NCBI GenBank assembly: GCA_020725425.1
Contig: DYFA01000045.1
Location: 70,924-134,923 of the forward strand
DNA: 64,000 bases
Source of the DNA: Aneurinibacillus sp.
GTDB taxonomy: Bacteria; Bacillota; UBA5301; DYFA01
Direction of reading: 5' to 3'
A program made the translations under genes and the position numbers. Every line of letters starts with the position of its first letter. Position 1 is the stretch's first letter. The notes below the pieces were generated by a model, which worked only from the letters and a program-made list of their open reading frames with translations, was not told the origin of the DNA and ran no database searches. This document shows, piece after piece, positions 4,681 to 47,662 of the stretch.

Positions 4681-4942
4681 GGGCAACGGCCATGTTCACG
4701 GCCTCAACCGCAAGTTCGGCCACCGGACGTTCCCCCATGGCCCAACCCACAACCATGTTCGGTCATGTCCGCAACCCGCAGACGGTTGGGGGCCGCCGCC
4801 GTGACTGCCGCTGAACCAGGTCTGGCGCCAGTTCGTGCTCGGGGTTGCGGTGAGTAAAGCCGCAGAGTCTCCAAAACCCTGATTCTTCCAATATCCTGAT
4901 ACATCGGGCTTCCCCACAACGGGAGCAACCCAAAGTACACTA

Positions 4943-5209
4943 CAACCCCAAGCCAACACTGAAAATACCGACCTTCTCGCTGGGCACAGGCAAGACCCGG
5001 CCGGGATCGTCCTGGTAGTGGAGCGGGCGCCCGGAGAGCTCCAAGGTCATCGCGCCGTCATCGTTCTTGAAGGTCTTGCTGTGGGAGGTGCGGAGTTCAA
5101 TCAGTTCGCTTCGGGCCGCAGTCGCTGGAGGGGGCCACACAAAGAACCCGACAAGCACAACCAGGAAACCCGTCACGACGCTCGACGCGACCCAACGTCC
5201 TCCCCGCAT
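4943..5209 (-). CDS. Small membrane-anchored hypothetical protein (88 aa)
   Basis: Strong RBS 'GGAGGAGGG' 5 nt upstream of the ATG. N-terminal TM helix 'VASSVVTGFLVVLVGFFVW'. Divergent from the secretin gene. Confidence 0.4.
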
Positions 5210-5448
5210 ATAGACCCTCCTCCCCCAGGAATCAAAGCGGCCTGTTTCCCGGTGTCGAGAAACAGGCCCCGTGCCCGCTGGGTTGATTTCCTGTCTCTCC
5301 GGCAGCCCGGCTGTCGTAGCCTCCGTTTGGCTGTAGACCCGCAGCTTTGCGTCTCCCTCTCGCTGGCAGGATTAGCCAATGAAAGGTGGAACAACTATCT
5401 CACCAAAGCGCAAGGGGGTCGCCTTGTGTGAGCCGGGGAGGGAGAGCG

Positions 5449-7998
5449 GTGAAGCGGTTGCCCGGGTTGCTGCAGGTGGGTGTGACGCTCGGTCTCTGCG
5501 TGGCGCTGGTCGGGAACCTGACGATCTGCTCGCTCCCCGGAGCGGCGGCTGGCGGAACCGTCACTCTCGACTTCAAGGACACCGACATTCGGGACATCCT
5601 GCGGGTGCTCGGGGCGCAGCAGGGGGTCAGCATCCTCCCCGATCCCGGAATCGCCGGTCCGGTGACCATCCACCTGACCGACGTGCCCTTCGAGGAGGGC
5701 TTGCGCGCGCTGCTCGAATCGCAGGGTCTGACCTACACCAAGCAGGGGAACGTCTACCGGGTCCAGCGGGCCAAGACGGCGCAGTTCAAGGTGGCGTGGA
5801 ACAAGGAGAAGGGGCGGCTGTCGCTCAGCGCCAGCGGGGCCGACCTCGGGGAGCTGGCCCGGGAGATCACCAACCAGACCGGGATCAACGTGGTTCTGGA
5901 GCGGGGGGCCCGAGCCACCGTCACGGCGACCCTGGTGGACCTGCCCTTCGAGGCGGCGCTGGGGGCGCTGGCGGAAGCCAACGGGCTCCGGGCGGTGAAG
6001 CGGGAGAACTACTGGGCCCTGGCACCGGCCGACGGAGCGACGGGCGGGGGTCTGGAGCAGTTGCAGGTCGAGGGCGACCTGTTGACTCTGCGGGCTCGGG
6101 AGGTGGATCTGGGGCTGCTCCTGCGGGAGCTTTCGGCCCGGGCCAACCTCAATCTGGTCGCCGACCGGGAGGCAAGGGGGCCGGTGAGCGGGTCGCTGGT
6201 GCGGGTGCCCCTGGTGGCCGGGCTGACCACCCTGCTCGAAGCGAACGGCTTCCAACTCGTGAACCGGGGCGACACCTACGTCGTCCGCCGGGCTCAGGCT
6301 TCCAATTTCACCCTGGTCCGGCGCCTCGACGGGAAGTTCGACCTCAACGTCTCCGGAGCCGATCTCGGCCAGGTGCTGCGGGAGTTGGCCGAACGGGCCG
6401 GAGTCAACCTGGTGGTATACAACTACGTCCGGGCGCAGGTCGCCCAGGTGACGGTGGAAGGGGTAACCCTGGAGGAAGCCTTCACCTACCTGCTCAAGGG
6501 GACGCCGCTCGTCTTCCGCAAGGAGGGCAATCTCTACCTCGTCGGTGACGCCGGCACGCTCCGCCCCGACTCACTCGACCTGATCCAGTCGCGCTTCTTC
6601 CGCCTGGCCTACGTGGCCCCTGAGGGGCTGGCCGCCCTGCTCCCGCCCATTTTCCCGGCCAACGCCGTGCGCCCGGTGAAGGAGCTGTCCGGGATCGTCG
6701 CCACCGGCTCCCCTGAGCTGCTCGGGCGGCTCGAGGAGTACCTGAAGATGATCGACGTGCCGGGTCGGGGAGGGACGGTCGAGCTCGTCCGGCTGACCAA
6801 CACCAAAGCTGACGAGCTGGCGCCGGTCCTGGGCCGGGTCTACTCGCCTCAGGGTCTGCAGCCGTTGCGGGACGGGAGCGGCTTCCTGCTCAGCGGGACA
6901 CCGGAAATGGTCGCCCAGATGAAGGAGACGATCGGCCGCCTCGACCAGCCGAGCCCTGCTACCAGCCGCCTGTTCGTCCTCAAACACCTGCGGGCCGAGG
7001 ACGTGACCCGCCTGCTGCCACCCGGAATGGACAAGGCGGGGGTTCTGGCACTTCCCCACCTCAACGCCGTGGTCGCCTCAGGGAACGAGGCTTACCTCGC
7101 GCAGCTCGCGGCCTACCTCCACGAGATCGACGCCCCCACGCCGCAGATCCTCTTCGACGTTTTGGTGGTGGAGTACAGCCGGGACGTCAGCGATACCGCC
7201 GGACTCTCCATGACCGGCAAGGAGGGGCAGGTCGAGTTGAAGCTGAACGAGGGGGACTCCAACGACAACCCCACCGGGCTGGTGCTGAACGTGAACTCCG
7301 GCTGGTCCCTGAACCCCTCCTTCTCTGCCACGCTGAAAGCCCTGGTCCACCAGGGCAAAGCCAAAATCCTGGCCAACCCGAAACTGGCGGCCCTCTCCGG
7401 GGAGACGGCCAGCTTCAACGTGATCACCAAGAGCTACTACTGGGACCCCCGCTACGAGGACAGCGACGCCAACACGGCCCCCAACACCGGCACAGGCTCG
7501 TCGGGCACCAGCGGAACCGGCGGGAGCAGCGGGACCACCACGACCACGGACGGGACTCTCCCCACCCTGCGCGGCGGGGCGCCGCGGTCGATCGACACCG
7601 GCCTCAAGGTGAAGGTGAAGCCGTGGGTCTCGGGGACGGGCGAGATCACCATCGACATCGAACCCTCGATCAGCGACTCCATGCCGAGCCAGGCCGACTT
7701 GCCCAAGACCAACGAGCGGTCCGCCCGGACGACGGTCCGGGTGAAGGACGGCGAGACCATCATCATCGGGGGGCTGATCCAGAGCGAGGTGCACCGGCAG
7801 AGTTACCGCGTGCCGCTCCTGGGGAGCATCCCCGTGATCGGCGCCCTCTTCCGGAGCAAGAACAACCTGGACCGGCAGAGCGAGTTCGTCATCTACATCA
7901 CGCCCCATCTCGTCACGGGGGCGGAGGAGGCCAACCGCCGCTTCGTGCCGCTCTGGCAGCCGGAAGAGCTGAAGAAGGAAGGGGCGGCCGCCCACTAA
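5449..7998 (+). CDS. gspD: Type II secretion / type IV pilus secretin (GspD/PilQ family)
   Basis: GTG start at 5449 preceded by 'GGGAGGGAG'. Signal peptide present. Multiple N-domain repeats. C-terminal secretin domain ('...GETIIIGGLIQSEVHRQSYRVPLLGSIPVIGALFRSKNNLDRQSEFVIYITPHLV'). Contains a Gly/Ser/Thr low-complexity insert. Confidence 0.85.
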   Translation: MKRLPGLLQVGVTLGLCVALVGNLTICSLPGAAAGGTVTLDFKDTDIRDILRVLGAQQGVSILPDPGIAGPVTIHLTDVPFEEGLRALLESQGLTYTKQGNVYRVQRAKTAQFKVAWNKEKGRLSLSASGADLGELAREITNQTGINVVLERGARATVTATLVDLPFEAALGALAEANGLRAVKRENYWALAPADGATGGGLEQLQVEGDLLTLRAREVDLGLLLRELSARANLNLVADREARGPVSGSLVRVPLVAGLTTLLEANGFQLVNRGDTYVVRRAQASNFTLVRRLDGKFDLNVSGADLGQVLRELAERAGVNLVVYNYVRAQVAQVTVEGVTLEEAFTYLLKGTPLVFRKEGNLYLVGDAGTLRPDSLDLIQSRFFRLAYVAPEGLAALLPPIFPANAVRPVKELSGIVATGSPELLGRLEEYLKMIDVPGRGGTVELVRLTNTKADELAPVLGRVYSPQGLQPLRDGSGFLLSGTPEMVAQMKETIGRLDQPSPATSRLFVLKHLRAEDVTRLLPPGMDKAGVLALPHLNAVVASGNEAYLAQLAAYLHEIDAPTPQILFDVLVVEYSRDVSDTAGLSMTGKEGQVELKLNEGDSNDNPTGLVLNVNSGWSLNPSFSATLKALVHQGKAKILANPKLAALSGETASFNVITKSYYWDPRYEDSDANTAPNTGTGSSGTSGTGGSSGTTTTTDGTLPTLRGGAPRSIDTGLKVKVKPWVSGTGEITIDIEPSISDSMPSQADLPKTNERSARTTVRVKDGETIIIGGLIQSEVHRQSYRVPLLGSIPVIGALFRSKNNLDRQSEFVIYITPHLVTGAEEANRRFVPLWQPEELKKEGAAAH

Positions 7999-8017
7999 CC
8001 CCTGCCGGCGGACCTCC

Positions 8018-10213
8018 TCACGGCAGCGGCAGCCGGATCCGGGCGCCTTTGACCTCCACCACGATCCCGTCCCGCCGGATCTCGACCACTCTCTCCCCGC
8101 CGACCGTGTCTCCGGACTTGACCACGACCGTCGCCCCCCCGCCGGCCTGGCGGACCAGGGCGCGGGGGCTGCCTTGCGGGTCATAGACCAGGCCCAGGAG
8201 GACGAGGCTGCTGCGGGGCGGCTCAGGCGGGGCGGGCGCTCCCGCCGGGCGCCGGTTGCCGGCCTTCTCGGGCACCGGAGTAACGCCCAGCCCGAAGAGG
8301 CGCCCTTCCCAGAGGCGGGGATACGCCTCTACCCGGGGAACGGTCAAGCCGGCTGCTTCAGCCAGGGCGCCCGGCGCAGCGGGCGGCGCGGCCGCCGGGC
8401 GGGTATCCGGCGAGCCGGCCGAGGACGGGCGGTCCAGGACCAGTTGCAGACGGAAGATCATGGCGCCGGACTCGCCGGCGCTTCTTTGGGCAGCCAACAC
8501 CTCCAGGGAGAGGAGCGGGTTTTGCCCGGCCAGCGCCACAAGGAAGGCAGTCAGGCTGCGGTCGCCGCCGGAGAAGGAGACGTCCACCGCCAAGCGCTGG
8601 CGCCCCGGGGGCGAGGTGAGCAGTTGGGCGCTCTTCGTCTCCAACCGAACCTCCGCGCCGGCGGCGGCCCGCTCGACCTGCACGAGCAGGCGGGTCAGGG
8701 CCTGGTCCGGCGGGAGTCCGGCCCATCCCAGCGCCCGCAGGGCGGCCAGAGCCTGGGTCCTGTCGCCGGCCCCGGTTGACTGGACCGGCGGGGCGGCGGG
8801 AGTCAGGCGTCCCACCAGGGCGAAGGCCTCACTGCCGTCGGCGCGGCGGGTGACCGGCCCGGCCAGGGCGACCTCCGCCAGGCGGCGGTTCCCCGTCAGG
8901 GCAGACAACACCGCGCTGGCCCGGGACGCTACGGCGCGGAACTCGACCAGGTGGTCCCCTTCCAGACGCAGGCCCTCCAGCCGCGTTCCGGCAGGCAGGC
9001 TGGCCGCCAGGGAGTCGATGGTCTCCAGGCGGGCGGCCAGAGGGAAGGCCACCGTGCGCCAGGCGGTCACCTCGGCGGCCTGACCGGCCAGGGCGGCAGA
9101 GGCCCGCTCCGCCGCCCGCTGCTCGTGAAGGCGGTAGACAGCGGCCCCGGCACCCAGGAGGGCCATTCCGACGGCCAGAGCCAGCGCCGCCACCCGTCTC
9201 CCTTCATACAGGGGTCGCTCCCCCGCTCTCCGCCCCCCGTTCAACAAAAGCGGCAGAGCTGCCCGGCCCCCCGCAGCCAGGAGGCCACCCCAAGCCGCCC
9301 AGTACTCCGCCGGCAGGCCGCCCACCCCGGCCGGGCGCCATTCCCAGACCGCAAACCCCGGCAGGGACGCCCAGGAGGCGCCCGCCGGCACCCACAACTC
9401 GACCGGCCCCCCTTCCGGGGCAACGAACTGGCGGGACCGGTCGATCTCCGCCTCAGCCTCGGCCCGGGGGAAAGAGCGGGAGAACCCCCAGTCGCCCCCG
9501 GCCAGCGCCACCAGGTCGACCTCGTCCCGCGCCCCCACCAGGAACCCCCGCCCCGCCAGGGGGCCCGGCGCCTCCGCGCTGTCTTCCCTTCTCTTGGCCT
9601 TGCTCGTGCGGAAGGCGTTGAGCAGCGCCACGCCGGCCGGCACCACTCCGGCAAGTGAGGCGAGCTCCAGCCCGGCGTCCTGGCAGGCCTTGAGCCACGG
9701 CGCCAGCGCCTCCCGCTGCGCCGTGATGGCGAGCAGCCGGCGCGGCGCACTGTCCGACGGGCGGTCGGGCAGGGGTTCGGAGAGCGCAGTCCCGGGGAGA
9801 AGAGCGAAGCCGTCGTAGCGCTCCTCGTCGGTCCAGGGGAGAACGGCGTTGAGCTCCTGGGTCACCAGCGCCCCCAGGTGGCGGGGGCTCAGGGGCGGAA
9901 CGGTGAGCACCCGTTCCAGGAAGAGGCGGCGGGGCAGAACGACCACCAGACGTGCCCGCCCCGGCGGCAGCCAGTTCAGCAGCCGGCGCAGCGTGGCTGC
10001 CCGCGCCCCGGCGTCCGCGCCGGATGGGCCCTCGCTGGCGGCGGGCTCACCGGTCTCCTCCTCCGCCCAGCGTTCCTCAGCCCACCCCTCGACCGTCCAG
10101 ACAGCCCCCCAGCGGCGGGCAACCACGCCGCGCGCGGCGCACTGGTCGAAGTCGACGGCCACCCATCTCTCCGGCAACCAGCCCTGGAGCCTCATTGCCC
10201 CACCTCCGCCCAA
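8018..10213 (-). CDS. Fused pilus/T2SS assembly-platform protein: PilM(GspL)-like cytoplasmic domain + TM + PilN/PilO(GspM)-like + C-terminal PilP/GspC-like domain
   Basis: 731 aa. N-terminus 'WVAVDFDQ...' is actin-like PilM-like. A single TM follows ('ALALAVGMALLGAGAAVY'), then coiled-coil periplasmic domains. The C-terminus 'LVLLGLVYDPQGSPRALVRQ..GATVVVKSGDTVGGERVVEIRRDGIVVEV' is PilP/GspC-like. It sits last in the pseudopilin operon. Confidence 0.5.
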   Translation of the reverse strand: MGGGGAMRLQGWLPERWVAVDFDQCAARGVVARRWGAVWTVEGWAEERWAEEETGEPAASEGPSGADAGARAATLRRLLNWLPPGRARLVVVLPRRLFLERVLTVPPLSPRHLGALVTQELNAVLPWTDEERYDGFALLPGTALSEPLPDRPSDSAPRRLLAITAQREALAPWLKACQDAGLELASLAGVVPAGVALLNAFRTSKAKRREDSAEAPGPLAGRGFLVGARDEVDLVALAGGDWGFSRSFPRAEAEAEIDRSRQFVAPEGGPVELWVPAGASWASLPGFAVWEWRPAGVGGLPAEYWAAWGGLLAAGGRAALPLLLNGGRRAGERPLYEGRRVAALALAVGMALLGAGAAVYRLHEQRAAERASAALAGQAAEVTAWRTVAFPLAARLETIDSLAASLPAGTRLEGLRLEGDHLVEFRAVASRASAVLSALTGNRRLAEVALAGPVTRRADGSEAFALVGRLTPAAPPVQSTGAGDRTQALAALRALGWAGLPPDQALTRLLVQVERAAAGAEVRLETKSAQLLTSPPGRQRLAVDVSFSGGDRSLTAFLVALAGQNPLLSLEVLAAQRSAGESGAMIFRLQLVLDRPSSAGSPDTRPAAAPPAAPGALAEAAGLTVPRVEAYPRLWEGRLFGLGVTPVPEKAGNRRPAGAPAPPEPPRSSLVLLGLVYDPQGSPRALVRQAGGGATVVVKSGDTVGGERVVEIRRDGIVVEVKGARIRLPLP

Positions 10214-11220
10214 CTCACGACGGCCAGCTTCGGCCGCCCCTCATCCCACCGGCGCCGCACGACGACCCGCGCCGCCACCCGGGCCTCCCCTGCCCGGGCC
10301 TCCACGTCCACCCGGACCACGCGGCTCAGGACAGTCAGGTGGGGCCGGAGAGCCGCGGCGGCGGCCGGGTCGCCCAGGGTGGTCCAGAGGGCGGCGGTCT
10401 CCGGCCAGACCACCGCCTGCCGGGCGTCGAGCAGCCGCAGCCGGCTCTCGGCTCCGAGCTCCAGACCGGCCCAGAGCGACGCCAACACCTCCGGCGGGGC
10501 GAGGTGGGCGTTGATCGTCCCGTCGAGAACCACGTCTTCCTGGAGGCGGTCCCAGTCGCCGGGCGACAGGCTGGGCACCGCCTTCCGCAACTCCTCCAAG
10601 GTGGCGGGCTGCTCCGCCGGCGGCTTTCGGCGGACCTCCTCCAGCTCGGCCACCGCCGCCCGAGCCTCACTCTCGTCCAGCCCCCGCGCCCGGAGCAGCG
10701 CCGCCACTCCTTCGGGCGCCGCGCCGAGGGGGTTCAGCGGGCCGAAGGTGGTGACCATCTCCGCCAGCTCCGGCCACCTGGCCGCCAGGCCCTGCACCGC
10801 CCGCAGTTGCTCCGGCACCTCGATCCACTGCTGCCGGAAAGACAGGAGCCGGTCGAGCTCCTCCGGTCCCACCCCCGGCAGGCGGGCCAGCGCCCCCGGC
10901 GGAGCGGTGTTGAGGTTGAGCCGGCTTCCCTCGTCGCTCACCGCCACCCGGACCTCGCCGGCCGGCACGCGGCGGGTGACCGGCCGGAGCCACTCCTCGT
11001 CCGGGCTGTCGTATCCGGGAGTCGAGTCGGCGGCCAGCCGCTCGAGGGCCAGCGCCACGCCCCCCTGAACCAGCTCCCGGGCCTGCAGCTCGTCCAGGAA
11101 ACGGCGGGTGGCCGCCGTCTCCCGGCTGACCCGGTCCACCACGATCCCCAGAAAAACTCCGAGCACCGTGCAGGCCATCAGCACCAGAAGCAGCGCCGCG
11201 CCGCGCTCCCGCCCGCCCAT
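10192..11220 (-). CDS. gspK: GspK-like minor pseudopilin
   Basis: Internal start 'MGGRERGAALLLVLMACTVLGV'. Central 'LNLNTAPPGALARLPGVGPEELDRLLSFRQ' (HhH) is typical of GspK. The ORF N-extension overlaps the upstream gene, and the start overlaps the stop of the previous pseudopilin gene. Confidence 0.7.
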   Translation of the reverse strand: MGGRERGAALLLVLMACTVLGVFLGIVVDRVSRETAATRRFLDELQARELVQGGVALALERLAADSTPGYDSPDEEWLRPVTRRVPAGEVRVAVSDEGSRLNLNTAPPGALARLPGVGPEELDRLLSFRQQWIEVPEQLRAVQGLAARWPELAEMVTTFGPLNPLGAAPEGVAALLRARGLDESEARAAVAELEEVRRKPPAEQPATLEELRKAVPSLSPGDWDRLQEDVVLDGTINAHLAPPEVLASLWAGLELGAESRLRLLDARQAVVWPETAALWTTLGDPAAAAALRPHLTVLSRVVRVDVEARAGEARVAARVVVRRRWDEGRPKLAVVSWAEVGQ

Positions 11221-11870
11221 CAGGGTTCCGCTCCAGCCGGGGCTCCGGCGTGCAGGGGGAAGACCCAGAGGCGTTCCGAACCGTAGCCCGAACTTGTCCC
11301 GGCGCCGCCCACCGCCAACTCCACCGCCACCGGCAGCCCGCCCTCGATCTCGCTCCCCCAGCGGGTGCTCCACCCGCCGGCCCGGCTGAGATAGCGGAAC
11401 CGGATCTCCCGCACCGACTCCAGAAGCACAGCCGAGCGGGTCCCGGACAGAGGCGCCAGCACGCCCGGCGCCCCACCCGCGCCGTCTTCCCCCCCGGCCA
11501 CCCAGGGCGTCACCCGCCGTTCGAAACCCTCCCGGCCGGGTGTGTACTCCACCCGGCTGAGGCCGCTCGGGCCGAGCCGGGCGGCGAAGGAGAGGCGGTC
11601 CGGCTCGCCGGAGAAAGAGGGCAGCGCGGGGTTGGGCGAGGTGTACGCCGCCTCCAGATCCGCCCGGAGCCGCCGGTAAACCGCCCTCTGCCGGGCCTGG
11701 GCGTCCGCCGCGACCAGGGCGCTCAGGCTGCGGTGGAGGACGAAGTAGACGCCGGCGACCGTCATCAGCGTCAGGGCGGTCAACGCCAGGGCCGACACGA
11801 CCTCCATGAGGGTGAAGCCCCGTTCACGGCGGGCCGGTCCCGTATGAGGGGCAGAGTAGCGGGCGCTCAT
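11220..11870 (-). CDS. Minor pseudopilin (GspJ-like), prepilin-type N-terminal methylation domain
   Basis: 'RRERGFTLMEVVSALALTALTLMTVAG' prepilin cleavage/methylation motif. The start is at an internal Met. Confidence 0.6.
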   Translation of the reverse strand: MSARYSAPHTGPARRERGFTLMEVVSALALTALTLMTVAGVYFVLHRSLSALVAADAQARQRAVYRRLRADLEAAYTSPNPALPSFSGEPDRLSFAARLGPSGLSRVEYTPGREGFERRVTPWVAGGEDGAGGAPGVLAPLSGTRSAVLLESVREIRFRYLSRAGGWSTRWGSEIEGGLPVAVELAVGGAGTSSGYGSERLWVFPLHAGAPAGAEP

Positions 11871-12271
11871 CGGCGCGCCCCAGCCCAGGTGGAGAGGGTG
11901 ACGGCCGTCTCCCTCCGCGCCCGCCAGGCCAGGCGGGAAACCGTCACCCGCCCGGGCTCGCCCAGCTCCACCCCGCTCCCCCGGGGCGGCTCCCACCGCC
12001 AGCGGAGGGAGGGGTCATTACCCAGCCCGGAGGTGCCCGGCTCCACCCCGACGGCCAGAAGGGCAGCCTGATTGGCCGCGGCGGTGCCCAGCGTCTCCCG
12101 CTCGGCCAGCGCCGACAACACCCCCACCCCGTGGGTGAACCCTTCCACCAGTGCCGTCAGGGCGATACCCAGCAAGGCGACGGCCACCACTACTTCGAGC
12201 AGGGTGAACCCGCGCCCGCCGACTGCGCCCCGAGCTCGGCTCCTACCAGTTCCCGATGTCGGCATCCTCAC
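11867..12271 (-). CDS. Minor pseudopilin (GspH/GspI-like)
   Basis: 'GGRGFTLLEVVVAVALLGIALTAL' prepilin N-terminus. 134 aa. Confidence 0.6.
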   Translation of the reverse strand: MRMPTSGTGRSRARGAVGGRGFTLLEVVVAVALLGIALTALVEGFTHGVGVLSALAERETLGTAAANQAALLAVGVEPGTSGLGNDPSLRWRWEPPRGSGVELGEPGRVTVSRLAWRARRETAVTLSTWAGARR

Positions 12272-12710
12272 CCTCCCCCCCGGGCCGCCCGTCCCGGCCC
12301 AAGGAGAAGAGGTCGTACCGGTCGGGGTTGTGCACCCCCGGGCAGAGGTACTGGTACTCCCGGCCCCACGGGTCCTTGGGCAGGTCCTCCTCCAGGTACG
12401 GCCCGTTCCAGCCTTCCGCCCCGTAGGCCGGTCGCTGGCGCAGGGCCGAGAGCCCCTGCTCCGTGGTGGGATAGGCGCCGGTGTCGGTCCGGAACAGGTT
12501 CAACGCCAGGGAAAGCGTCTTGATCTGCGCCTTGGCCGCCGTCCGCTGAGCTCCGGCGATGCGCGTGAAGACGCCCGGAGCCACCAGGGCCGCCAGGAAG
12601 CCGATGATCACCACTACCGCCAGAACCTCGAGCAACGTGAAACCCTGTTCCCCACGGCGAGCGCGGCCTGCGACCATTCTCGATCCCCCCATGTCCTGCG
12701 ACCTGCGCAA
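12243..12710 (-). CDS. gspG: Major pseudopilin GspG
   Basis: 'GEQGFTLLEVLAVVVIIGFLAALVAPGV...AKAQIKTLSLALNLFRTDTGAYPTTEQGL...GWNGPYL...DPWGREYQY' is a textbook GspG. The likely start is the internal Met (~12677). Confidence 0.8.
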   Translation of the reverse strand: MRRSQDMGGSRMVAGRARRGEQGFTLLEVLAVVVIIGFLAALVAPGVFTRIAGAQRTAAKAQIKTLSLALNLFRTDTGAYPTTEQGLSALRQRPAYGAEGWNGPYLEEDLPKDPWGREYQYLCPGVHNPDRYDLFSLGRDGRPGGEGEDADIGNW

Positions 12711-12717
12711 GATAAGC

Positions 12718-13926
12718 TTAGAACTCCAGGGCGGGCAGAGACAAGACCGGCAGAAGCATCGCCGCCACCACCAGCGCCACGAGCCCCGCCACCCCCAGGA
12801 TCAGCGCCGGCTCCACGAGCGCCAGAAGCCGCCGGGTCCGCTCCCGCGCCTCAGTCCCGTAGACCTCCGCCACCCGGCTGAAGGCCGTTTCCAGGTTGCC
12901 CGCCTCCTCCCCGACGGCGACCATCTCCACCGCCAGCGCGGGAAAGAACGCCTGCTCCGCCAGAGTGGCAGCGAGGGGGCGGCCGCTCTCCACCCGCTCG
13001 TGGGCCTCGGCCAGGACCCTTCTGAGGCCGGGCGAGGCCTCCGCCTCGGTCAGCACGGCCAGCGCCCGGGAGAGGGTGAGCCCGCTTCCCAGGAGCATGG
13101 CCGCGCTCCGGGCGAGGCGGGCGACGGCCAGGTGGTGGCGGATCGTCCCGACCCCCGGCAGTCGCTCCGCCAGGCGGCCCAGTGCCGCCCGGCCGCCCGG
13201 CGAGCGGACCCAGATCCATCCGGCGAGGCCGGCCGCGCCCAGAACCAGCAGCCATACCGGCCACCTCCCGGCCAGCGCCGACCCGATCCCCACCACCACT
13301 CTGGTCGGCCAGGGGAGCGCCCGGTGGAACTGGCGGAAGAGCGCGGCGAAGCGCGGCACCACGAACCCCAGCATGACCCCGGCGGAGAGGACCGAGGCGG
13401 CGGCCACCACCGCCGGGTAGACCAGAGCGGTCCGGACGAACCGCCGCACCTCTTCCTCCTCCTCGCGGTAAGCCGCGAGGCGCCGGAGGACCGCCTCCAG
13501 GTTGCCGGCCGCCTCTCCCGCCCGCACCAGCCCTGTGTAGTCCGGAGGGAAGAGCCGCGGAAAGCGGGAGAGGGCGCCGGCCAGTCCGGCCCCGCTCTGA
13601 ACTTCGGCCCGGACGGCCAAAAGAAGCGGCTGCCACCGGGGCGGCGCCATGCGGCCGAGCGCGCCCAGCGCCCGATCCAGGTCGAGGCCGCTTTCGAGGA
13701 GGTCCGCCAGATGGCGGGTGAAGGCGGTCACCCAGGGACCGGCCCCCGCCGGGACGGCGCCCGCCCCGTTGCGGGCCTCCCGCAGACTCAAGGGGAAGAG
13801 TCCCTGCTCCCGCAGGCGCAGCCGGGCCGTCCCCAGGTCCTCGGCGGACAGTTGCCCCCGGACCACCCGCCCGTCCATCCCGGCGGCCCGGTAGGCGAAC
13901 TGGCGCACGGGCCGTTCCCCGGTCAT
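12718..13926 (-). CDS. gspF: Inner-membrane platform protein GspF/PilC
   Basis: Two GspF repeats with polytopic TM segments. The likely start 'MTGERPVRQFAYRA' overlaps the gspE stop. The ORF N-extension is spurious. Confidence 0.85.
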   Translation of the reverse strand: MTGERPVRQFAYRAAGMDGRVVRGQLSAEDLGTARLRLREQGLFPLSLREARNGAGAVPAGAGPWVTAFTRHLADLLESGLDLDRALGALGRMAPPRWQPLLLAVRAEVQSGAGLAGALSRFPRLFPPDYTGLVRAGEAAGNLEAVLRRLAAYREEEEEVRRFVRTALVYPAVVAAASVLSAGVMLGFVVPRFAALFRQFHRALPWPTRVVVGIGSALAGRWPVWLLVLGAAGLAGWIWVRSPGGRAALGRLAERLPGVGTIRHHLAVARLARSAAMLLGSGLTLSRALAVLTEAEASPGLRRVLAEAHERVESGRPLAATLAEQAFFPALAVEMVAVGEEAGNLETAFSRVAEVYGTEARERTRRLLALVEPALILGVAGLVALVVAAMLLPVLSLPALEF

Positions 13927-15410
13927 TCGCTGGTCACCCGCCACACCTCGGCGAGGCTCGTCACGCCGGCCGCCGCCTTGCGCAGCCCGTCCGCCCGGAG
14001 AGTCACCAGCCCCTGGCGCAGGGCCACCTCCCGCACCGCCCGGGCTGCCGGCCGGGTGAGGACGAGCTGGCTGATCTCCGGCGTCATCACGATCAATTCG
14101 TACAGGGCGGTGCGGCCGCGGTAGCCGGTTCCGCCGCAGGCCGGACAGCCCGACGGCCGGTAGAAAACCGCGGCGCCCGCCGAAGCCGCCATCTGCCCAG
14201 GCACCTCCGACGGCTGGCAAGGGATCTTGCACTCCGGGCAGAGCACCCGCACCAGCCGCTGGGCGAGGAGACCCCGGACAGTCGAGGCGACCAGGTACGG
14301 TTCGAGTTCCATGTCAAGCAGCCGGGTGACACCCCCCGCGGCGTCGTTGGTGTGGAGGGTGGAGAAGACGAGGTGCCCGGTGAGCGCCGCCTGGACGGCC
14401 ATCCGGGCCGTCTCCCGGTCCCGGATCTCGCCGACCAGGATGATGTCGGGGTCCTGGCGCAGGATGTGCCGGAGCCCCCGGGCGAAGGTGAAGCCGATCT
14501 TCTCCTTTACCTGCAGTTGGTTGACCCCGTGAAGCTGGTACTCCACCGGGTCCTCGATGGTGATGATCTTCTTCTCCGGCGTGTTGATGGCGCTGAGGGC
14601 GGCGTAGAGAGTCGTGGTCTTGCCGCTCCCGGTCGGGCCGGTCACCAGGATCAGGCCGTGCGGCAGGGCGATCAGCCGCTCGAAGGCCGCCTGGACCTCC
14701 GGCGAGAAGCCGAGCTCGGAGAGGGTGAGCAGGAGGCTGGCCCGGTCGAGCAGGCGGAGCACCACGCTTTCCCCGTGGACCGTCGGGACGGTGGAGACCC
14801 GCACGTCCACCTCCCGCCCCCCCAGCCGCAGCCGGAACCGGCCGTCCTGAGGCAGCCGACGCTCGGCGATGTTGAGCCCGGCCATGACCTTGATGCGGGA
14901 GACCACCCCGCTCCAGAGGCGACGGGGTGGAGGGGTCTCTTCGCGCAGGACGCCGTCGATCCGGTAGCGCAGCCGCACCTGTCCCTCGAAGGGCTCGAGG
15001 TGGACGTCGCTGGCCCGCTTCCGGAGGGCCTCGGCGATCATGGAGTTGACCAGCCTGACGACGGGGGCTTGGTTGGCCAGCTCCTCGGCGCCCTCGGCCT
15101 CCTCCTGCTCTCCCTCCTCAGACAGCCCCGCCAGGACTCCGGCCACGGTCTGCGAGCCGGCGCCGTAGTACCGGTCCACCAGGCCGTCCAGCTCAGCCGG
15201 GGGCACCGCCACGCCCCGGACCCGGCACCCCAGGAGCACCGCCAGCTCATCGAGAAGCAGGAGGTTGGAGGGGTCGGCCATTCCCACCACCAGGGCGCCT
15301 CGCTCCCACTCGACGGGCAGGACCCGGTAGCGGGTGGCAACCTCGGCGGGGATCCTGCTCCGCAGGTCCTCGGGGATCTCCGTTAGACGCAGAACCTCCT
15401 CGCCGCCCAT
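13923..15410 (-). CDS. gspE: Secretion/pilus assembly ATPase GspE/PilB
   Basis: N1 domain, Walker A 'GPTGSGKTTT', Asp and His boxes, and tetracysteine 'CPECKIPC...CPACGGTG'. RBS GGGAGGTGGG upstream. Confidence 0.9.
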   Translation of the reverse strand: MGGEEVLRLTEIPEDLRSRIPAEVATRYRVLPVEWERGALVVGMADPSNLLLLDELAVLLGCRVRGVAVPPAELDGLVDRYYGAGSQTVAGVLAGLSEEGEQEEAEGAEELANQAPVVRLVNSMIAEALRKRASDVHLEPFEGQVRLRYRIDGVLREETPPPRRLWSGVVSRIKVMAGLNIAERRLPQDGRFRLRLGGREVDVRVSTVPTVHGESVVLRLLDRASLLLTLSELGFSPEVQAAFERLIALPHGLILVTGPTGSGKTTTLYAALSAINTPEKKIITIEDPVEYQLHGVNQLQVKEKIGFTFARGLRHILRQDPDIILVGEIRDRETARMAVQAALTGHLVFSTLHTNDAAGGVTRLLDMELEPYLVASTVRGLLAQRLVRVLCPECKIPCQPSEVPGQMAASAGAAVFYRPSGCPACGGTGYRGRTALYELIVMTPEISQLVLTRPAARAVREVALRQGLVTLRADGLRKAAAGVTSLAEVWRVTSE

Positions 15411-15558: not shown

Positions 15559-15936
15559 ATGAGGACCTTCGATCTGCAGCGTTTTGCCACCGCCGGCCCG
15601 AGCGCCGGGTCGAGGCGGGTGCGGCGGAAACGAGTGTCGGGCCGCAGCCGCCCGGCCACCGCCGTCGTGTGTCCTCTGCGCCGCGCCGCGGCGCGAACCC
15701 GCCGCCCCCCCCGCAGCGCTTCGGCCAAGTCTCCGGCCGCCGCCCCGAGCCCGGCGCCGCCGGCCATCCCCGCCCTCACGGTGAAGTACGTGGTGCAGCC
15801 GGGAGACACCCTCCACCGCATCGCCCGCCGCTTCGGCACCACGGCCAGAACGCTCGCCCTCCTGAACGAGCTGCACAAACCGGTGTTGCTCGTCCCAGGC
15901 GAGATCATCCTGGTTCCGGATGAGGGGCGGGTCTAG
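15559..15936 (+). CDS. LysM domain protein (basic, Ala/Pro-rich N-terminus)
   Basis: C-terminal 'YVVQPGDTLHRIARRFGTTARTLALLNELHKPVLLVPGEIILVP' is a LysM motif. The start is uncertain. Confidence 0.4.
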   Translation: MRTFDLQRFATAGPSAGSRRVRRKRVSGRSRPATAVVCPLRRAAARTRRPPRSASAKSPAAAPSPAPPAIPALTVKYVVQPGDTLHRIARRFGTTARTLALLNELHKPVLLVPGEIILVPDEGRV

Positions 15937-16682
15937 AGCGGCTGCCCGGGGCGGGAAGGCTTCTCCTCCGCCGATCGCTGGGTCTGGAGGAAGAGCTTGC
16001 CTTCCGTGTCGAGGCTGGCGAGGTAAACCTCCTTGGGGCTCTGGAGGTTGAAGTTGCGGAGCTGGGTGGAGAGCCAAGTGTAGTCGAGGCCGACCTTGGC
16101 CAGGTTCTCGTAGAGGACCCGCCCCCGCTCGACGAGCACCACCGGCAGGCCCTCGTACTTGGTGGGGAGGCGCAGGTCGGCCGGCGTGAGCGGCGCTTTC
16201 TCCGGCTTCGGGATGACCGAGATCTCCCCGTTGGTCTCCAGGATGGCGAATTCGACGTCGGCCAGATTCGGGTAGCCCTTGGTGCGGAGCCGGGACAAGA
16301 GGTCGTCCACGCTCCAGAAGGCCTCGCGCAGCCCCCGCTTGACCACCTTGCCCTGGTCCACCAGGACGATCGGCGAGCCGCCGATCAGGCGGGAGAGCCG
16401 CCGGTTCTTCAGCGTGGCCAGGGAAAGCCCCACGTTGAGGAGGGTCAGGGTGGCCAGGGAGACCGCCGTCGGCCAGATGGGGAGCCGGCTGACGGTCAGC
16501 GGGTGGGCGGCGAGCGACCCGAAGAGGATGGAGATCATGAAATCGTAGGGGGTCAGCGCGGAGATCTGTTCCTTGCCGGTGATCCGCACCGCGGCGAGCA
16601 GCGCCAGGTAGATCACGAGCGCCCGGACGAGCATCGCCCAGATCGGCAGGGTTGACTGGCTACCGAACAGCGACGGACTCAT
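15933..16682 (-). CDS. DUF421 (YetF/YrbG-like) membrane protein, paralog 1
   Basis: N-terminal TM pair with a C-terminal YetF-like domain. 40% or more identical to the adjacent paralog. Confidence 0.75.
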   Translation of the reverse strand: MSPSLFGSQSTLPIWAMLVRALVIYLALLAAVRITGKEQISALTPYDFMISILFGSLAAHPLTVSRLPIWPTAVSLATLTLLNVGLSLATLKNRRLSRLIGGSPIVLVDQGKVVKRGLREAFWSVDDLLSRLRTKGYPNLADVEFAILETNGEISVIPKPEKAPLTPADLRLPTKYEGLPVVLVERGRVLYENLAKVGLDYTWLSTQLRNFNLQSPKEVYLASLDTEGKLFLQTQRSAEEKPSRPGQPL

Positions 16683-16692
16683 GCCTCTCTCC

Positions 16693-17430
16693 TCACTTCA
16701 GGTACTTGAACTGCGACGGCCGGATGTAGTCCACGTAGATGTTCTGCTGCCGGTCGATCGCCATGTAGAGGACGTCCTTCAGGTCCGGGATGCCCTTGGC
16801 CCGCAAGACGTCCCGCACCCACTGCTCGCCCTGGCCGATCATCCGCAGGTTCTCCTCGTTGATCTGTCCGTCGGCGATCAGGGTGAGGGGCCAGCCCTTC
16901 TCCGGGGGTTTGAGGCCCAGGTCGGCCGGGGTCGCCGGCCGGGCCTGCGACTTCAGGACCACTGACAGGTCGCCGGAGGGCTCCAGGACTGCAAACTCCA
17001 CGTCGGAGAGGCTGGGGGCGTTCTTGAGGCGCAACTGCATCAGCAGGTTGTCCATGTTGTAGTGGACCTTCATCAGATTGTCCTCGACCACCTTCCCGTT
17101 CTCCACCAGGACCACCGGCTCGTCCCCGACCAGCTTGGCCAGGTATGGGGAGGACTGTTCCAGGAAGAAGAGGATCAGGTGGAGGGTGTAGAAGGCGCCG
17201 ATGACGGCCAAGGCGGTGAAGGTCGAGGCGCCGGCGTCGGCCAGGGGCGGGCTGGCGAGCGACCCCACGGTGACGGCCACGACGAAGCTGTAGGGATCGA
17301 GGGTGGAGACCTCGCGCCGCCCCGACAGCCGGGTGACGAGGATCAGTGCCAGGTAGATGACGGCGGTACGCACGGAAAACGCCCAGAGCGGCAGGCTGGT
17401 CGAAGCACCAAAGAGGCGGGCCAGCGTCAC
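16693..17430 (-). CDS. DUF421 (YetF/YrbG-like) membrane protein, paralog 2
   Basis: Same architecture as paralog 1 ('...VIYLALILVTRLSGRREVSTLDPYSFVVAVTVGSLA...'). Of the two ORFs listed at this locus, frame 16693..17430 is the coding one. Confidence 0.75.
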   Translation of the reverse strand: MTLARLFGASTSLPLWAFSVRTAVIYLALILVTRLSGRREVSTLDPYSFVVAVTVGSLASPPLADAGASTFTALAVIGAFYTLHLILFFLEQSSPYLAKLVGDEPVVLVENGKVVEDNLMKVHYNMDNLLMQLRLKNAPSLSDVEFAVLEPSGDLSVVLKSQARPATPADLGLKPPEKGWPLTLIADGQINEENLRMIGQGEQWVRDVLRAKGIPDLKDVLYMAIDRQQNIYVDYIRPSQFKYLK

Positions 17431-46835: not shown

Positions 46836-47662
46836 TCGTCATAAGGGACCAGCGCCCGGCCCTGAGCCGCCGCGAGTCGGCGCGCCGCCGGCGCCGGCTG
46901 GACGATGGCGTCCACCCCCGCCTCCACCGCCGCTACATCGAGTGCCTCCCGGTACCGCCCCCCCGGGCGCATGCAGCCCAGGGTGAGCCGGGCGCCGGGC
47001 AGGCGTTTCCGGGCGGCGGAGAGGAAGGCTGCCACCTCCTCGACCGGCGGGGCGCTCCGCCCCGCGTAGCGGGTCCCGGGCGTCGGGATGAAGACGAGCA
47101 CCACCAGGGCGTCGACTCCTTCCGCCACTAACCGGTCCAGGGCCGCGCCTTCCGGGCCGAGCCCGCCGCCGCGCAACCCGAGGCAGAGGTGGGGCACTAC
47201 AGGGAGCCGGGCCCGCAACGCCCGCAGGGCGGCCACGAACCTTTCCGGGCCGGCCTCTAAGCCGTAGACCTCCCGCAGCGTATCAGCGTCCGCGACGAAG
47301 TCGAGCGAGGCGACGTCCGCCCAGCCGGCGAGCGCCTCGGCTTCCGCCTCCTCCACCAGGCCGGGATGGGCGTTCAACCGGAACCGGCGGCGCAACCGGC
47401 GCAGCCGGCCGGCCTCCCGGGCCAGCGGCACCACGCCCCGGCGGTCACATCCCCCGCTGACGAGCAGGCTCTTGATTCGCCGCCAGCTTCTCCCTTCCTC
47501 CTGACCGGCCTCAACCGGCTCCAGCCCGACGGTGCGCAGATCGGCCATCCCGGCCAGGTATCGCCGGCCGCAGTGGGCGCAGTTCAGGGCGCACTCCGTC
47601 CCGGTGACGCTCACCGCCCGGGTCGCCCGGGGCCAGACGCAGATCAGCGGCCGGGGGTCCAC
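46799..47662 (-). CDS. Second radical-SAM protein (LipS partner-like)
   Basis: '[10 protein letters not shown]' CxxxCxxC, a TIM-barrel-like alternation, and a C-terminal CC pair. Confidence 0.6.

What the first reader, a model, noticed from the sequence alone, without database searches (positions are those of the whole stretch)
5449..15410. T2SS/T4P-like locus with convergent secretin and a single 731-aa PilM/N/O/P (GspL/M/C)-like fusion protein
gspE-F-G plus three minor pseudopilins and gspK are translationally coupled, with overlapping stops and starts. Instead of separate alignment-subcomplex genes there is one ORF (8018-10213). It combines an actin-like cytoplasmic domain, one TM, periplasmic coiled-coil domains and a PilP/GspC-like C-terminus. 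The secretin gene is on the opposite strand, converging, and carries a Gly/Ser/Thr-rich insert (about 7480-7570). There is no pilT/pilU, which argues for secretion or a non-retractile fibre.
Basis: partly seen in the sequence, partly recalled or inferred. Interest (0 to 1): 0.55.

Follow-up and report, generated by a model that had tools for sequence, protein, structure and literature searches.

The report
Type II secretion locus with fused GspL-M-C
A spore-former-type Bacillota genome carries a complete-looking type II secretion gene cluster in which the three proteins that normally link the inner-membrane motor to the outer-membrane pore are fused into one chain, a rare natural variant bearing on how many copies of each part the machine needs.

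Summary
The locus is real. On the minus strand lie gspE, gspF, gspG, a GspI-like gene, a GspJ-like gene, a GspK-like gene and one 725-aa ORF (8018-10195). A secretin gene (5449-7998, plus strand) converges on that ORF with a 19-bp gap.

The long ORF is a GspL-GspM-GspC fusion:
- residues 1-~320 fold as a PilM/GspL-type actin-like domain (AlphaFold pLDDT 87; Foldseek PilM E 5e-14, cyto-EpsL/GspL E 1e-9);
- there is one transmembrane helix (335-353);
- then a PilN-like domain, a GspMb/PilO-like domain, a Pro/Ala-rich linker and a GspC-HR/PilP-like domain.

An unfused relative encodes L, M, C and D in the same order. The fusion is rare: I found five sequence clusters, and only two full-length relatives among 1.84 billion representative proteins. 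All keep one open frame.

- two minor pseudopilins plus GspK, not three plus GspK;
- a 40-bp gap between gspF and gspG;
- the likely start gives 725 aa, not 731.

In two relatives a c-di-GMP riboswitch and a >2600-aa PKD-rich protein diverge from the secretin. Here only the riboswitch and an 89-aa remnant remain.

Verdict: a new variant of a known system, of moderate interest.

The parts
13923..15410 (-). gspE, the secretion ATPase (495 aa)
   Evidence: NCBIfam TIGR02533 type_II_gspE scores 629.9 bits (cut-off 630.25) and is the best family, ahead of PilB at 555. Pfam T2SSE E 3.5e-140 plus MshEN. No paralogue in the window.
12718..13926 (-). gspF, the inner-membrane platform protein (402 aa)
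   Evidence: Pfam T2SSF matches twice, E 2.4e-52. The best NCBIfam family is GspF at 309.8 bits, below the 424 cut-off. The ATGA overlaps the gspE stop.
12243..12677 (-). gspG, the major pseudopilin (144 aa)
   Evidence: TIGR01710 typeII_sec_gspG scores 160.2 bits against a cut-off of 88.85. Pfam T2SSG E 1.2e-39. The GFTLLE prepilin motif is present.
11867..12265 (-). GspI-like minor pseudopilin (132 aa)
   Evidence: Pfam N_methyl matches. Matches to XpsI and gspI are weak (26.6 and 24.8 bits, below their cut-offs). The GFTLLE motif is present.
11220..11870 (-). GspJ-like minor pseudopilin (216 aa)
   Evidence: Pfam T2SSJ scores 31.2 bits against a cut-off of 28. N_methyl matches and the GFTLME motif is present.
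10192..11220 (-). GspK-like minor pseudopilin (342 aa)
   Evidence: NCBIfam T2SS_GspK scores 100 bits (cut-off 130) and covers model positions 1-298 of 307. Pfam T2SSK and HHH_3 match weakly.
8018..10195 (-). Fused GspL-GspM-GspC assembly-platform protein (725 aa plus stop)
   Evidence: The ORF is open in five homologues at 46-68% identity. It has one strong TM helix. The evidence for each domain is given in the rows below.
9236..10195 (-). Residues 1-~320: cytoplasmic PilM/GspL-type actin-like domain
   Evidence: The AF2 model of residues 1-470 has pLDDT 87.1 and pTM 0.70. Foldseek against PDB gives PilM 5eoy E 5.5e-14, 2ych 9e-12, FtsA 1.5e-10, cyto-EpsL 1yf5 1.3e-9 (TMt 0.61) and GspL-cyto 4pht 2.7e-9 (TMt 0.64). 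Remote HMMER relatives of this region carry Pfam PilM_2 plus PilN.
9137..9193 (-). Residues 335-353: the single transmembrane helix
   Evidence: The Kyte-Doolittle peak is 2.26 at an equivalent position in all five homologues, and no other strong peak follows it. It forms part of the long helix 329-382 in the model.
8801..9040 (-). Residues 386-465: PilN/GspL-periplasmic-type ferredoxin-like domain
   Evidence: Pfam PilN matches weakly in the window copy (17.8 bits) but in 4 of 5 family members. pLDDT is 90-97 in model 2. Remote relatives match PilN at the same position.
8426..8713 (-). Residues 495-590: GspMb/PilO-like domain, with no TM helix of its own
   Evidence: Pfam T2SSM_b matches in 5 of 5 members, best E 6.5e-6. 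P0004 scores 24.0 bits against a cut-off of 21.7; the window copy scores 19.0. NCBIfam GspM_XpsM gives E 1.8e-4. The best Foldseek match of model 1 is PilO 2rjz. NCBI names homologue P0153 'GspMb/PilO family protein'.
8216..8425 (-). Residues 591-660: Pro/Ala/Gly-rich linker containing one conserved motif (VPR..AYP.L..G.LFG)
   Evidence: P+A+G+S+T make up 63% of these residues. pLDDT is below 50. The conserved columns are listed.
8021..8215 (-). Residues 661-725: GspC HR / PilP-like beta domain
   Evidence: Pfam T2SSC scores 20.1 bits over model positions 75-141 of 141, below the cut-off of 27. NCBIfam GspC_delta gives E 7.9e-5. The PDB sequence hit is LspC 7oio. In model 1 the domain has pLDDT 70-84, and Foldseek matches PulC HR 6hcg_e (TMt 0.71, rmsd 2.2), GspC 3oss_C (TMt 0.74) and PilP 2y4y.
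5449..7998 (+). Secretin (849 aa), converging on the fused gene
   Evidence: Pfam matches are Secretin E 7e-38, STN (4 stretches), Secretin_N (3 stretches) and GspD N0. The PilQ and GspD equivalogs tie at about 200 bits, both below their cut-offs. PDB sequence matches are to GspD and PilQ.
5560..6549 (+). Four tandem N0/STN-type repeats in the secretin N-terminus
   Evidence: Pfam STN matches four times. The repeat starts are at residues 38, 124, 212 and 297. The repeats are conserved in the relatives L001 and L003.
7459..7557 (+). Gly/Ser/Thr-rich insert within the secretin domain
   Evidence: The sequence is DSDANTAPNTGTGSSGTSGTGGSSGTTTTTDGT. The insert is present but variable in L001 and L003, and about 35 residues longer than the same loop in L007.
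5298..5387 (-). c-di-GMP-I riboswitch aptamer, divergent from the secretin gene
   Evidence: Rfam RF01051 scores 55.5 bits against a gathering score of 35. A homologous element (RF03167, 74-80 bits) sits at the same place in L001 and L003.
4940..5209 (-). 89-aa ORF: the N-terminal remnant (signal peptide plus first motif) of the giant PKD-rich protein of the relatives
   Evidence: blastp gives 69% identity over 36 aa to the L001 protein and 39% over 82 aa to the L003 protein. tblastn finds no other part of the giant gene in the window.

Best explanation
This is a type II secretion-type (pseudopilus) machine of a diderm, sporulation-gene-carrying Bacillota lineage. Its entire GspC-GspL-GspM assembly platform is encoded as one polypeptide.

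Shown here:
- The protein has an N-terminal cytoplasmic actin-like PilM/GspL domain and one TM helix.
- In the periplasm it has a PilN-like domain, a GspMb/PilO-like domain, a long Pro/Ala-rich linker and a terminal GspC-HR/PilP-like domain.
- The domain order equals the gene order L-M-C-D of unfused systems of the same subtype.

Inferred from what is established for the separate proteins:
- The cytoplasmic domain docks the GspE hexamer.
- The L- and M-type ferredoxin-like domains pair with each other, within or between chains, around GspF.
- The flexible linker lets the HR domain reach the N0/STN domains of the secretin.
- Each chain would therefore be one complete 'column' tying the ATPase to the outer-membrane pore, at a fixed 1:1:1 L:M:C ratio and without the TM helices that GspM and GspC normally have.
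- The GspG pseudopilus, capped by the I/J/K-like proteins, would push Sec-exported folded cargo through the secretin.

The likely ancestral cargo or partner is the c-di-GMP-riboswitch-controlled, signal-peptide-bearing protein of more than 2600 aa, rich in PKD/fn3 domains. It lies next to the secretin gene in two relatives and is reduced to an 89-aa stub in this genome.

The fusion most plausibly arose by joining an L gene to an already fused M-C gene, because such M-C genes exist elsewhere.
For: Locus composition and family matches:
- GspG is above its equivalog cut-off. GspE is 0.35 bits below its cut-off and is the best family. GspF, GspJ and GspK are the best family matches for their ORFs, and the secretin is clear.

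Domain evidence for the fused protein:
- AF2 model of residues 1-470: pLDDT 87.1.
- Foldseek: PilM 5.5e-14, EpsL-cyto 1.3e-9, GspL-cyto in complex with GspE 2.7e-9.
- Pfam PilN, T2SSM_b and T2SSC in 4, 5 and 2 of the 5 family members.
- The HR domain matches PulC/GspC HR with TM 0.71-0.74 and rmsd 2.2-2.6 A.
- There is a single TM helix.

Exhaustive HMMER search:
- Remote hits fall into L-type proteins (PilM_2+PilN, 420-570 aa) covering profile positions 5-440, C-type HR proteins covering 550-699, and M-C fusions.
- No other L-M-C protein appears among the best 150 hits.

Comparative loci:
- The unfused reference locus L007 reads E-F-G-H-I-J-K-L(461)-M(193)-C(222)-D.
- The same fused architecture and gene order recur in L001, L002, L003 and L006.
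- M-C two-domain proteins are P0078, P0059 and probably the 312-aa gene of the Bacillota MAG locus L075.

Other support:
- Junctions fit translational coupling.
- Riboswitch plus giant protein in the relatives, and the remnant here.
- Published work describes a 1:1:1 XpsCLM column module that links XpsE to XpsD N0 through a disordered GspC linker (PMC11981180).
Against: - No experiment exists. Function, expression and secretion are all inferred.
- The window copy's own matches to PilN, T2SSM_b and T2SSC are below the Pfam cut-offs (17.8, 19.0 and 20.1 bits). The M- and C-domain assignments therefore rest on family-wide hits and on a low-confidence full-length model (pLDDT 44; Foldseek E > 0.007).
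- There is no direct Pfam T2SSL hit.
- GspH is missing. No prepilin peptidase was found in the parts of the window I scanned.
- The candidate cargo gene is truncated in this genome, so the present cargo is unknown.
- In canonical systems the TM helices of GspM and GspC contribute to the C-L-M complex. Their absence here may mean a different mode of assembly.
- The diderm status of the organism is inferred from the secretin and a possible beta-barrel protein, not demonstrated.
Confidence: 0.75

Rival explanations
1. The machine is a type IV pilus-like fibre (adhesion or DNA uptake) rather than a protein-secretion system. On this reading the fused protein is a PilM-N-O-P alignment subcomplex.
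For: - The N-terminal domain is structurally nearer to PilM than to GspL by Foldseek E-value.
- Remote relatives carry Pfam PilM_2 and PilN rather than T2SSL.
- The secretin scores equally for PilQ and GspD (202 against 199 bits) and carries STN domains.
- GspH is absent.
Against: - The major pilin is a GspG equivalog, well above its cut-off (160 against 88.85 bits).
- The ATPase scores higher as GspE (630 bits) than as PilB (555, with a cut-off of 676).
- I-, J- and K-like minor pseudopilins are present, including a GspK-type cap protein.
- The C-terminal domain hits T2SSC/GspC models.
- There is no PilT in the window.
Confidence: 0.12
2. The 725-aa product is a polyprotein. After export it would be cut in the Pro/Ala-rich linkers, yielding a membrane-anchored L part and soluble periplasmic M and C parts, so the working machine would not be single-chain.
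For: Two low-complexity, low-confidence linkers (466-494 and 591-660) separate the domains. The M and C parts have no anchor of their own.
Against: - No protease site or protease gene is evident.
- The linker 591-660 holds a conserved motif, which suggests a functional tether.
- Canonical GspC itself has a long disordered linker that is not cleaved (PMC11981180).
- M-C fusions with a single TM helix exist elsewhere.
Confidence: 0.08
3. The locus is a decaying or silent remnant, or the fusion is an assembly or frameshift artefact.
For: The neighbouring giant gene is reduced to an 89-aa stub. GspH and a prepilin peptidase are missing from the locus. The sequence comes from a metagenome-assembled genome.
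Against: - All eight genes are intact, with coding-type GC3 of 0.85-0.92.
- The fused frame is open in five homologues from different samples and assemblies at 46-68% identity, with many invariant columns across all domains.
- The secretin is 77-84% identical among them, which indicates purifying selection.
Confidence: 0.04

Closest known systems
Canonical T2SS assembly platform GspC-GspL-GspM (for example XpsCLM, PulCLM, EpsCLM)
   Same: - It has the same set of domains: an actin-like cytoplasmic domain that binds GspE, L and M ferredoxin-like periplasmic domains, and a GspC HR domain that binds secretin N0 through a disordered linker.
- It sits at the same position in the operon, after gspK and next to gspD.
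- The 1:1:1 module matches the trimeric XpsCLM column proposed in PMC11981180.
   Different: - Here it is one polypeptide with a single TM helix. The M and C parts lack their own N-terminal cytoplasmic stub and TM helix.
- There is no PDZ or coiled-coil domain after the HR domain.
- The L part is of the PilM_2/PilN sequence type, not Pfam T2SSL, and the M part is of the T2SSM_b subtype.
PilM-PilN-PilO-PilP alignment subcomplex of type IVa pili
   Same: The modules are homologous and in the same order from cytoplasm to outer membrane. The best structural matches are PilM (5eoy, 2ych), PilO (2rjz) and PilP (2y4y).
   Different: - In T4aP these are four separate proteins, and PilP is a lipoprotein.
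- The pilin, ATPase and minor-pilin set here is of T2SS type.
- No PilT is present in the window.
Unfused 'PilM_2/PilN-type GspL + GspMb' T2SS loci of diverse diderm phyla (for example L007; also the Halanaerobiales MAG L040 and the Bacillota MAG L075)
   Same: The gene order is E-F-G-(H)-I-J-K-L-M-C-D. L7_L461 matches fused-family profile positions 40-426, and L7_C222 matches positions 636-695.
   Different: - L, M and C are separate genes, or L plus an M-C gene in L075.
- The secretin lies on the same strand and has a single N0 domain.
- GspH is present in L007.
Two-domain GspM-GspC fusions (P0078, 325 aa; P0059, 346 aa)
   Same: They have a T2SSM_b-type domain followed by an HR-like C-terminus, and they match profile positions 455-688 and 510-699 of the fused family.
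   Different: They keep the N-terminal TM helix of GspM and lack the L part. They are possible intermediates on the way to the triple fusion.

Membership tests
Type II secretion system (T2SS) | GspE-type secretion ATPase | tested here: met
   TIGR02533 scores 629.9 bits against a cut-off of 630.25, so marginally below, but it is the best-scoring family. Pfam T2SSE gives E 3.5e-140.
Type II secretion system (T2SS) | GspG major pseudopilin with a prepilin leader | tested here: met
   TIGR01710 scores 160.2 bits against a cut-off of 88.85, and the GFTLLE motif is present.
Type II secretion system (T2SS) | GspF polytopic platform protein | tested here: met
   Pfam T2SSF matches twice, E 2.4e-52. 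The GspF equivalog is the best family, but at 309.8 bits it is below the 424 cut-off.
Type II secretion system (T2SS) | Minor pseudopilins GspH, I, J and K | tested here: inconclusive
   I-like, J-like (Pfam T2SSJ above its cut-off) and K-like (100 bits against a cut-off of 130) proteins are present. No GspH gene is present. Only three prepilin motifs exist in the window.
Type II secretion system (T2SS) | Outer-membrane secretin GspD with an N0 domain | tested here: met
   Pfam Secretin, Secretin_N, N0 and STN all match. The GspD and PilQ equivalogs both score about 200 bits, below their cut-offs, so the subtype is not resolved.
Type II secretion system (T2SS) | GspC (HR domain), the component that distinguishes T2SS in TXSScan-type models (PMC6668835) | tested here: inconclusive
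   By sequence, T2SSC scores 20.1 bits against a cut-off of 27 and GspC_delta gives E 7.9e-5. By structure, TM is 0.71-0.74 to PulC/GspC HR, but that comes from a moderate-confidence part of a poor model, with Foldseek E about 0.1.
Type II secretion system (T2SS) | GspL: cytoplasmic actin-like domain, one TM helix, periplasmic ferredoxin-like domain | tested here: met
   The confident model (pLDDT 87) matches cyto-EpsL and GspL at E 1e-9 and PilM at 5e-14. There is one TM helix and a PilN-like domain follows it. There is no direct Pfam T2SSL hit.
Type II secretion system (T2SS) | GspM | tested here: met
   Pfam T2SSM_b matches in 5 of 5 family members, best E 6.5e-6. P0004 is above the cut-off, while the window copy scores 19.0 against 21.7. 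The TM helix of GspM is absent.
Type II secretion system (T2SS) | Prepilin peptidase GspO/PilD (may be encoded elsewhere) | tested here: not met
   None lies in the locus, and none was found among the roughly 40 window ORFs scanned. The rest of the genome was not available.
Type II secretion system (T2SS) | Secretes folded periplasmic proteins across an outer membrane | not testable with these tools
   This needs a secretome comparison between wild type and mutant.
Type IVa pilus | PilT/PilU retraction ATPase and a PilA-type major pilin | tested here: not met
   There is no second T2SSE-family ATPase in the window. The pilin is GspG-type. PilB scores 555 bits against a cut-off of 675.65.

The most novel reading that the evidence does not exclude
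A natural single-chain GspL-M-C protein, with only one TM helix, is a fully functional T2SS assembly platform. If so, a strict 1:1:1 L:M:C stoichiometry suffices and the TM anchors of GspM and GspC are dispensable. It would also mean that a lineage of spore-former-type diderm Bacillota uses this streamlined T2SS, whose secretin carries four N0/STN rings, to export a giant adhesin controlled by a c-di-GMP riboswitch.
Probability: 0.45. Interest if true: 0.65.

Novelty: new variant of a known kind. Interest (0 to 1): 0.5.

Why it matters
How many copies of GspC, GspL and GspM a T2SS holds, and how they are arranged, is still debated. One cryo-EM study found twelve GspC, while a model of six 1:1:1 C-L-M columns has also been proposed (as summarised in PMC11981180).

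A naturally fused L-M-C chain is an evolutionary experiment on this question. It fixes the ratio at 1:1:1 and removes two of the three TM helices.

In practical terms, it offers a single-gene, single-chain construct for structural work on the whole column from the ATPase to the secretin.

It also adds a T2SS to the short list known from outer-membrane-bearing Firmicutes. Only one T2SS was found in that group in PMC6668835. In relatives the system is tied to a c-di-GMP riboswitch and a giant surface-type protein.

Tried and rejected
- **Full-length AF2 model.** A three-sequence alignment gave a poor model (pLDDT 44). I used it only for the two moderately confident periplasmic domains.
- **Scan of GTDB species genomes with the fused-family alignment.** It found nothing.
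- **Second scan with GspE.** It returned only distant systems, at most 55% identity, from many diderm phyla. No named close relative or fine taxonomy could be obtained.
- **Word-indexed protein search with an L-type alignment.** It returned only 10 proteins.
- **Next-nearest secretins (33-36% identity).** They are stand-alone genes in unrelated contexts and gave no comparison for the platform.
- **Narrow family profile against the M genes of L007, L040 and L075.** It does not detect them directly. The M assignment therefore rests on Pfam T2SSM_b.
- **ORF 10667-11476 as a third minor pseudopilin.** Rejected: it has no family match and no prepilin motif, and it lies in an alternative frame.
- **MshEN-type c-di-GMP binding by GspE.** The Pfam domain is present, but I did not test the binding motif, so I make no claim.
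- **Literature searches.** I found no paper describing an L-M-C fusion, or a T2SS in Limnochordia-like Firmicutes.

Full report
**Source and setting**

The fused protein is identical to NCBI protein QME79_04145 of a 'Bacillota bacterium' MAG (GCA_030019095.1, contig JASEFQ010000006.1). The window has 63-75% G+C, and the T2SS operon is its richest part at about 75%.

Neighbouring genes are ordinary chromosomal ones:
- two YetF/DUF421 genes;
- a SipL(SPOCS)-LysM sporulation-type protein;
- a Lon-like protease, MetH and the glycine cleavage genes behind a glycine riboswitch;
- an intein-containing NrdJ.

The sporulation-type gene fits the Bacillota label. The secretin implies an outer membrane. 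The best GspE matches in 185,579 GTDB species genomes reach only 55% identity and come from many diderm phyla, including two Halanaerobiales MAGs and one Bacillota MAG. No close named relative was found, so finer taxonomy stays open.

**Checking the observation**

Gene calls follow the NCBI and Logan annotation and coding-type GC3. On the minus strand they are:

| Gene | Coordinates | Length |
|---|---|---|
| gspE | 13923-15410 | 495 aa |
| gspF | 12718-13926 | 402 aa |
| gspG | 12243-12677 | 144 aa |
| GspI-like | 11867-12265 | 132 aa |
| GspJ-like | 11220-11870 | 216 aa |
| GspK-like | 10192-11220 | 342 aa |
| long ORF | 8018-10195 | 725 aa |

- The long ORF extends to 10213, giving 731 aa, only if an upstream TTG is used.
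- Junctions are overlaps of 4, 23, 4, 1 and 4 nt, except for a 40-nt gap between gspF and gspG.
- The secretin (5449-7998, plus strand, 849 aa) converges on the long ORF with 19 bp between the stops.
- The Gly/Ser/Thr-rich stretch is at 7459-7557, within the Pfam Secretin domain. It is conserved in position but not in sequence in the close relatives, and it is missing from a distant unfused system.
- Only three prepilin G-F-T-L-x-E motifs occur in the whole window. There are therefore two minor pseudopilins plus GspK, not three plus GspK, and GspH is absent.
- No second GspE/PilT-type ATPase is in the window.

**What kind of machine it is**

- GspG exceeds its NCBIfam equivalog cut-off (160 against 89 bits).
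- GspE scores 629.9 against a cut-off of 630.25, clearly above PilB (555).
- GspF, GspK and GspJ are the best-matching families for their ORFs.
- The secretin carries N0/STN, Secretin_N and Secretin domains but does not resolve between GspD and PilQ.

Taken together this is a T2SS-type (pseudopilus) system rather than a type IVa pilus.

**The 725-aa protein: sequence evidence**

The window copy has only sub-threshold Pfam hits, but they are ordered as expected:
- PilN at residues 393-456;
- T2SSM_b at 493-572;
- T2SSC (the HR part) at 659-724.

Across the five known family members, T2SSM_b is hit in 5, PilN in 4 and T2SSC in 2. One member exceeds the T2SSM_b gathering score, and NCBI names another 'GspMb/PilO family protein'.

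I ran an exhaustive HMMER search with the family profile against 1.84 billion representative proteins. It found only two full-length relatives, plus one 61-aa fragment matching the C-terminus. The remote hits fall into three classes:
- proteins of 420-570 aa matching profile positions ~5-440, which carry Pfam PilM_2 plus PilN and sometimes weak T2SSL;
- proteins of 150-280 aa matching positions ~550-699, which carry T2SSC;
- two M-C proteins (P0078, P0059) with an N-terminal TM helix, a T2SSM_b domain (Pfam hit in P0078 only) and an HR-like end.

**The 725-aa protein: structural evidence**

A 93-row alignment of the first 470 residues gave a confident AlphaFold2 model (pLDDT 87.1, pTM 0.70). 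Its features are:
- an actin-like two-lobed alpha/beta domain up to about residue 320;
- a long helix at 329-382 that includes the only strong hydrophobic segment, 335-353;
- a ferredoxin-like domain at 386-465.

Foldseek against the PDB gave:
- PilM: 5eoy E 5.5e-14, 2ych E 9e-12;
- FtsA: about 1e-10;
- cytoplasmic domain of EpsL: 1yf5 E 1.3e-9, TM 0.61;
- GspL cytoplasmic domain bound to GspE: 4pht E 2.7e-9, TM 0.64.

The full-length model from three sequences was poor overall (pLDDT 44). Residues 390-465 and 660-725 reached 70-85, and residues 495-590 reached 50-67. Its best PDB matches were PilO (2rjz), PilM/FtsA, PilP (2y4y), the PulC HR domain (6hcg_e; TM 0.71, rmsd 2.2 A, 26% identity) and the GspC HR domain (3oss_C; TM 0.74). 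All had weak E-values, so this is supporting evidence and not decisive.

No hydrophobic segment follows the first TM helix in any of the five homologues. The M and C parts are therefore periplasmic and have no anchors of their own.

**The fusion is real and rare**

The five homologues are P0001, P0002, P0003, P0004 and P0153. They share 46-68% identity with the window protein (BLASTP; searches give similar figures) and come from an NCBI MAG, a JGI metagenome, two Logan assemblies and a second NCBI MAG. All keep one open frame, with invariant columns in every domain.

- In L001, L002 and L003 the gene order is the same as in the window.
- L006 shows a GspK-like gene directly upstream of the fused gene.
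- The associated secretins are 77-84% identical to the window's. The next ones drop to 33-36% and stand alone in unrelated contexts.

**Comparison with unfused systems**

| Locus | Gene order |
|---|---|
| L007 | E-F-G-H-I-J-K-L(461 aa, PilM_2+PilN)-M(193 aa, T2SSM_b)-C(222 aa)-D |
| L075 (Bacillota MAG) | E-F-G-x-x-x-K-L(488)-[312 aa: T2SSM_b plus an HR-like end]-D |
| L040 (Halanaerobiales MAG) | L(431)-193 aa-D |

- In L007 the family profile matches the L gene at positions 40-426 and the C gene at positions 636-695. The domain order of the fused protein therefore equals the gene order L-M-C of this T2SS subtype.
- The likeliest history is L plus (M-C) giving L-M-C, with loss of the M anchor.
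- Among the 80 GspE-anchored loci, none encodes a fused L-M-C protein detectable with the family profile.

**Mechanism (inferred)**

By analogy with the established roles of the separate proteins:
- the cytoplasmic domain binds GspE (as in 4pht);
- the L- and M-type periplasmic domains pair;
- the HR domain binds the secretin N0 domain (as in 3oss and 6hcg);
- the 70-residue Pro/Ala-rich linker corresponds to the disordered GspC linker.

The disordered GspC linker has been proposed to bridge six C-L-M columns to a 15-mer secretin (PMC11981180). The fused protein would be a covalent version of that 1:1:1 column.

**Context beyond the finding**

- A c-di-GMP-I riboswitch (5298-5387, minus strand; 55.5 bits) diverges from the secretin gene.
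- In L001 and L003 a c-di-GMP-I-GGC-type riboswitch (74-80 bits) sits in the same place. It precedes a protein of more than 2600 aa with a signal peptide and PKD/fn3/Ig-like domains.
- In the window only an 89-aa ORF remains (4940-5209). It is homologous to the N-terminus of that protein. The presumed cargo or partner gene has therefore been lost or moved in this genome.
- The secretin has four tandem N0/STN-type repeats, against one N0 in L007 and L075.

**Novelty**

I found no paper describing an L-M-C fusion. The large TFF survey in PMC6668835 reports only one T2SS among outer-membrane-bearing Firmicutes.

All parts are homologous to known T2SS components, so this is a new variant of a known kind. 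It is of moderate interest, mainly for the questions of assembly-platform stoichiometry and minimal architecture.

Noticed in passing
window 5298-5387 (-) and 4940-5209 (-); L001 15320-15407 and 15602-end; L003 10008-10092 and 10180-end: A c-di-GMP riboswitch diverges from the secretin gene. In two relatives it precedes a signal-peptide-bearing PKD/fn3-rich protein of more than 2600 aa. In the window only an 89-aa N-terminal remnant of that gene is left. The relatives match the c-di-GMP-I-GGC variant model, whereas the window copy matches the standard c-di-GMP-I model.
   Followed up: partly
window 5560-6549 (+): The secretin has four tandem N0/STN-type repeats ahead of three Secretin_N domains. 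Unfused systems (L007, L075) have one N0. This may relate to the width of the periplasm, or offer several docking sites for the HR domain.
   Followed up: partly
window 8000-14000: The T2SS operon has about 75% G+C, against 63-68% in the flanking genes. This could reflect horizontal origin or its Ala/Arg/Gly/Pro-rich proteins. I did not analyse it further.
   Followed up: no
window 1599-3479 (+) and 3454/3565-4680 (+): There is a 626-aa predicted lipoprotein (lipobox LTGC; weak CarboxypepD_reg domain). It is followed by a 371-408-aa protein with no family match that has a signal-like N-terminus and ends in ...GLVLGF. A C-terminal Phe is typical of outer-membrane beta-barrels. These could be envelope or cargo proteins.
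   Followed up: no
window 55893-59495 (-): The B12-dependent ribonucleotide reductase NrdJ is 1200 aa. An insert at about residues 324-642 matches intein-containing families. The G+C dip to 53% at 54-56 kb lies just beside it.
   Followed up: no
window 52258-52361 (-): A glycine riboswitch lies upstream of the glycine cleavage genes (GcvPA and GcvPB at 47644-50447).
   Followed up: no
window 18548-20299 (-): A SipL (SPOCS) plus LysM protein, which is a spore-coat morphogenesis type, together with two YetF/DUF421 genes at 15933-17430. These mark an endospore-former-type Bacillota that also has a secretin.
   Followed up: no
L003 6650-7204; L001 3669-4465: PhdYeFM/ParE toxin-antitoxin genes are inserted between the fused gene and the secretin in L003, and upstream of gspE in L001. 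They are absent at these places in the window.
   Followed up: no
L006 (GCA_050261595.1, contig JBLNDK010000012.1): A fifth fused L-M-C homologue lies on a 4.1-kb contig binned as 'Methanocella sp.', an archaeon. This is almost certainly a mis-binned bacterial contig.
   Followed up: no
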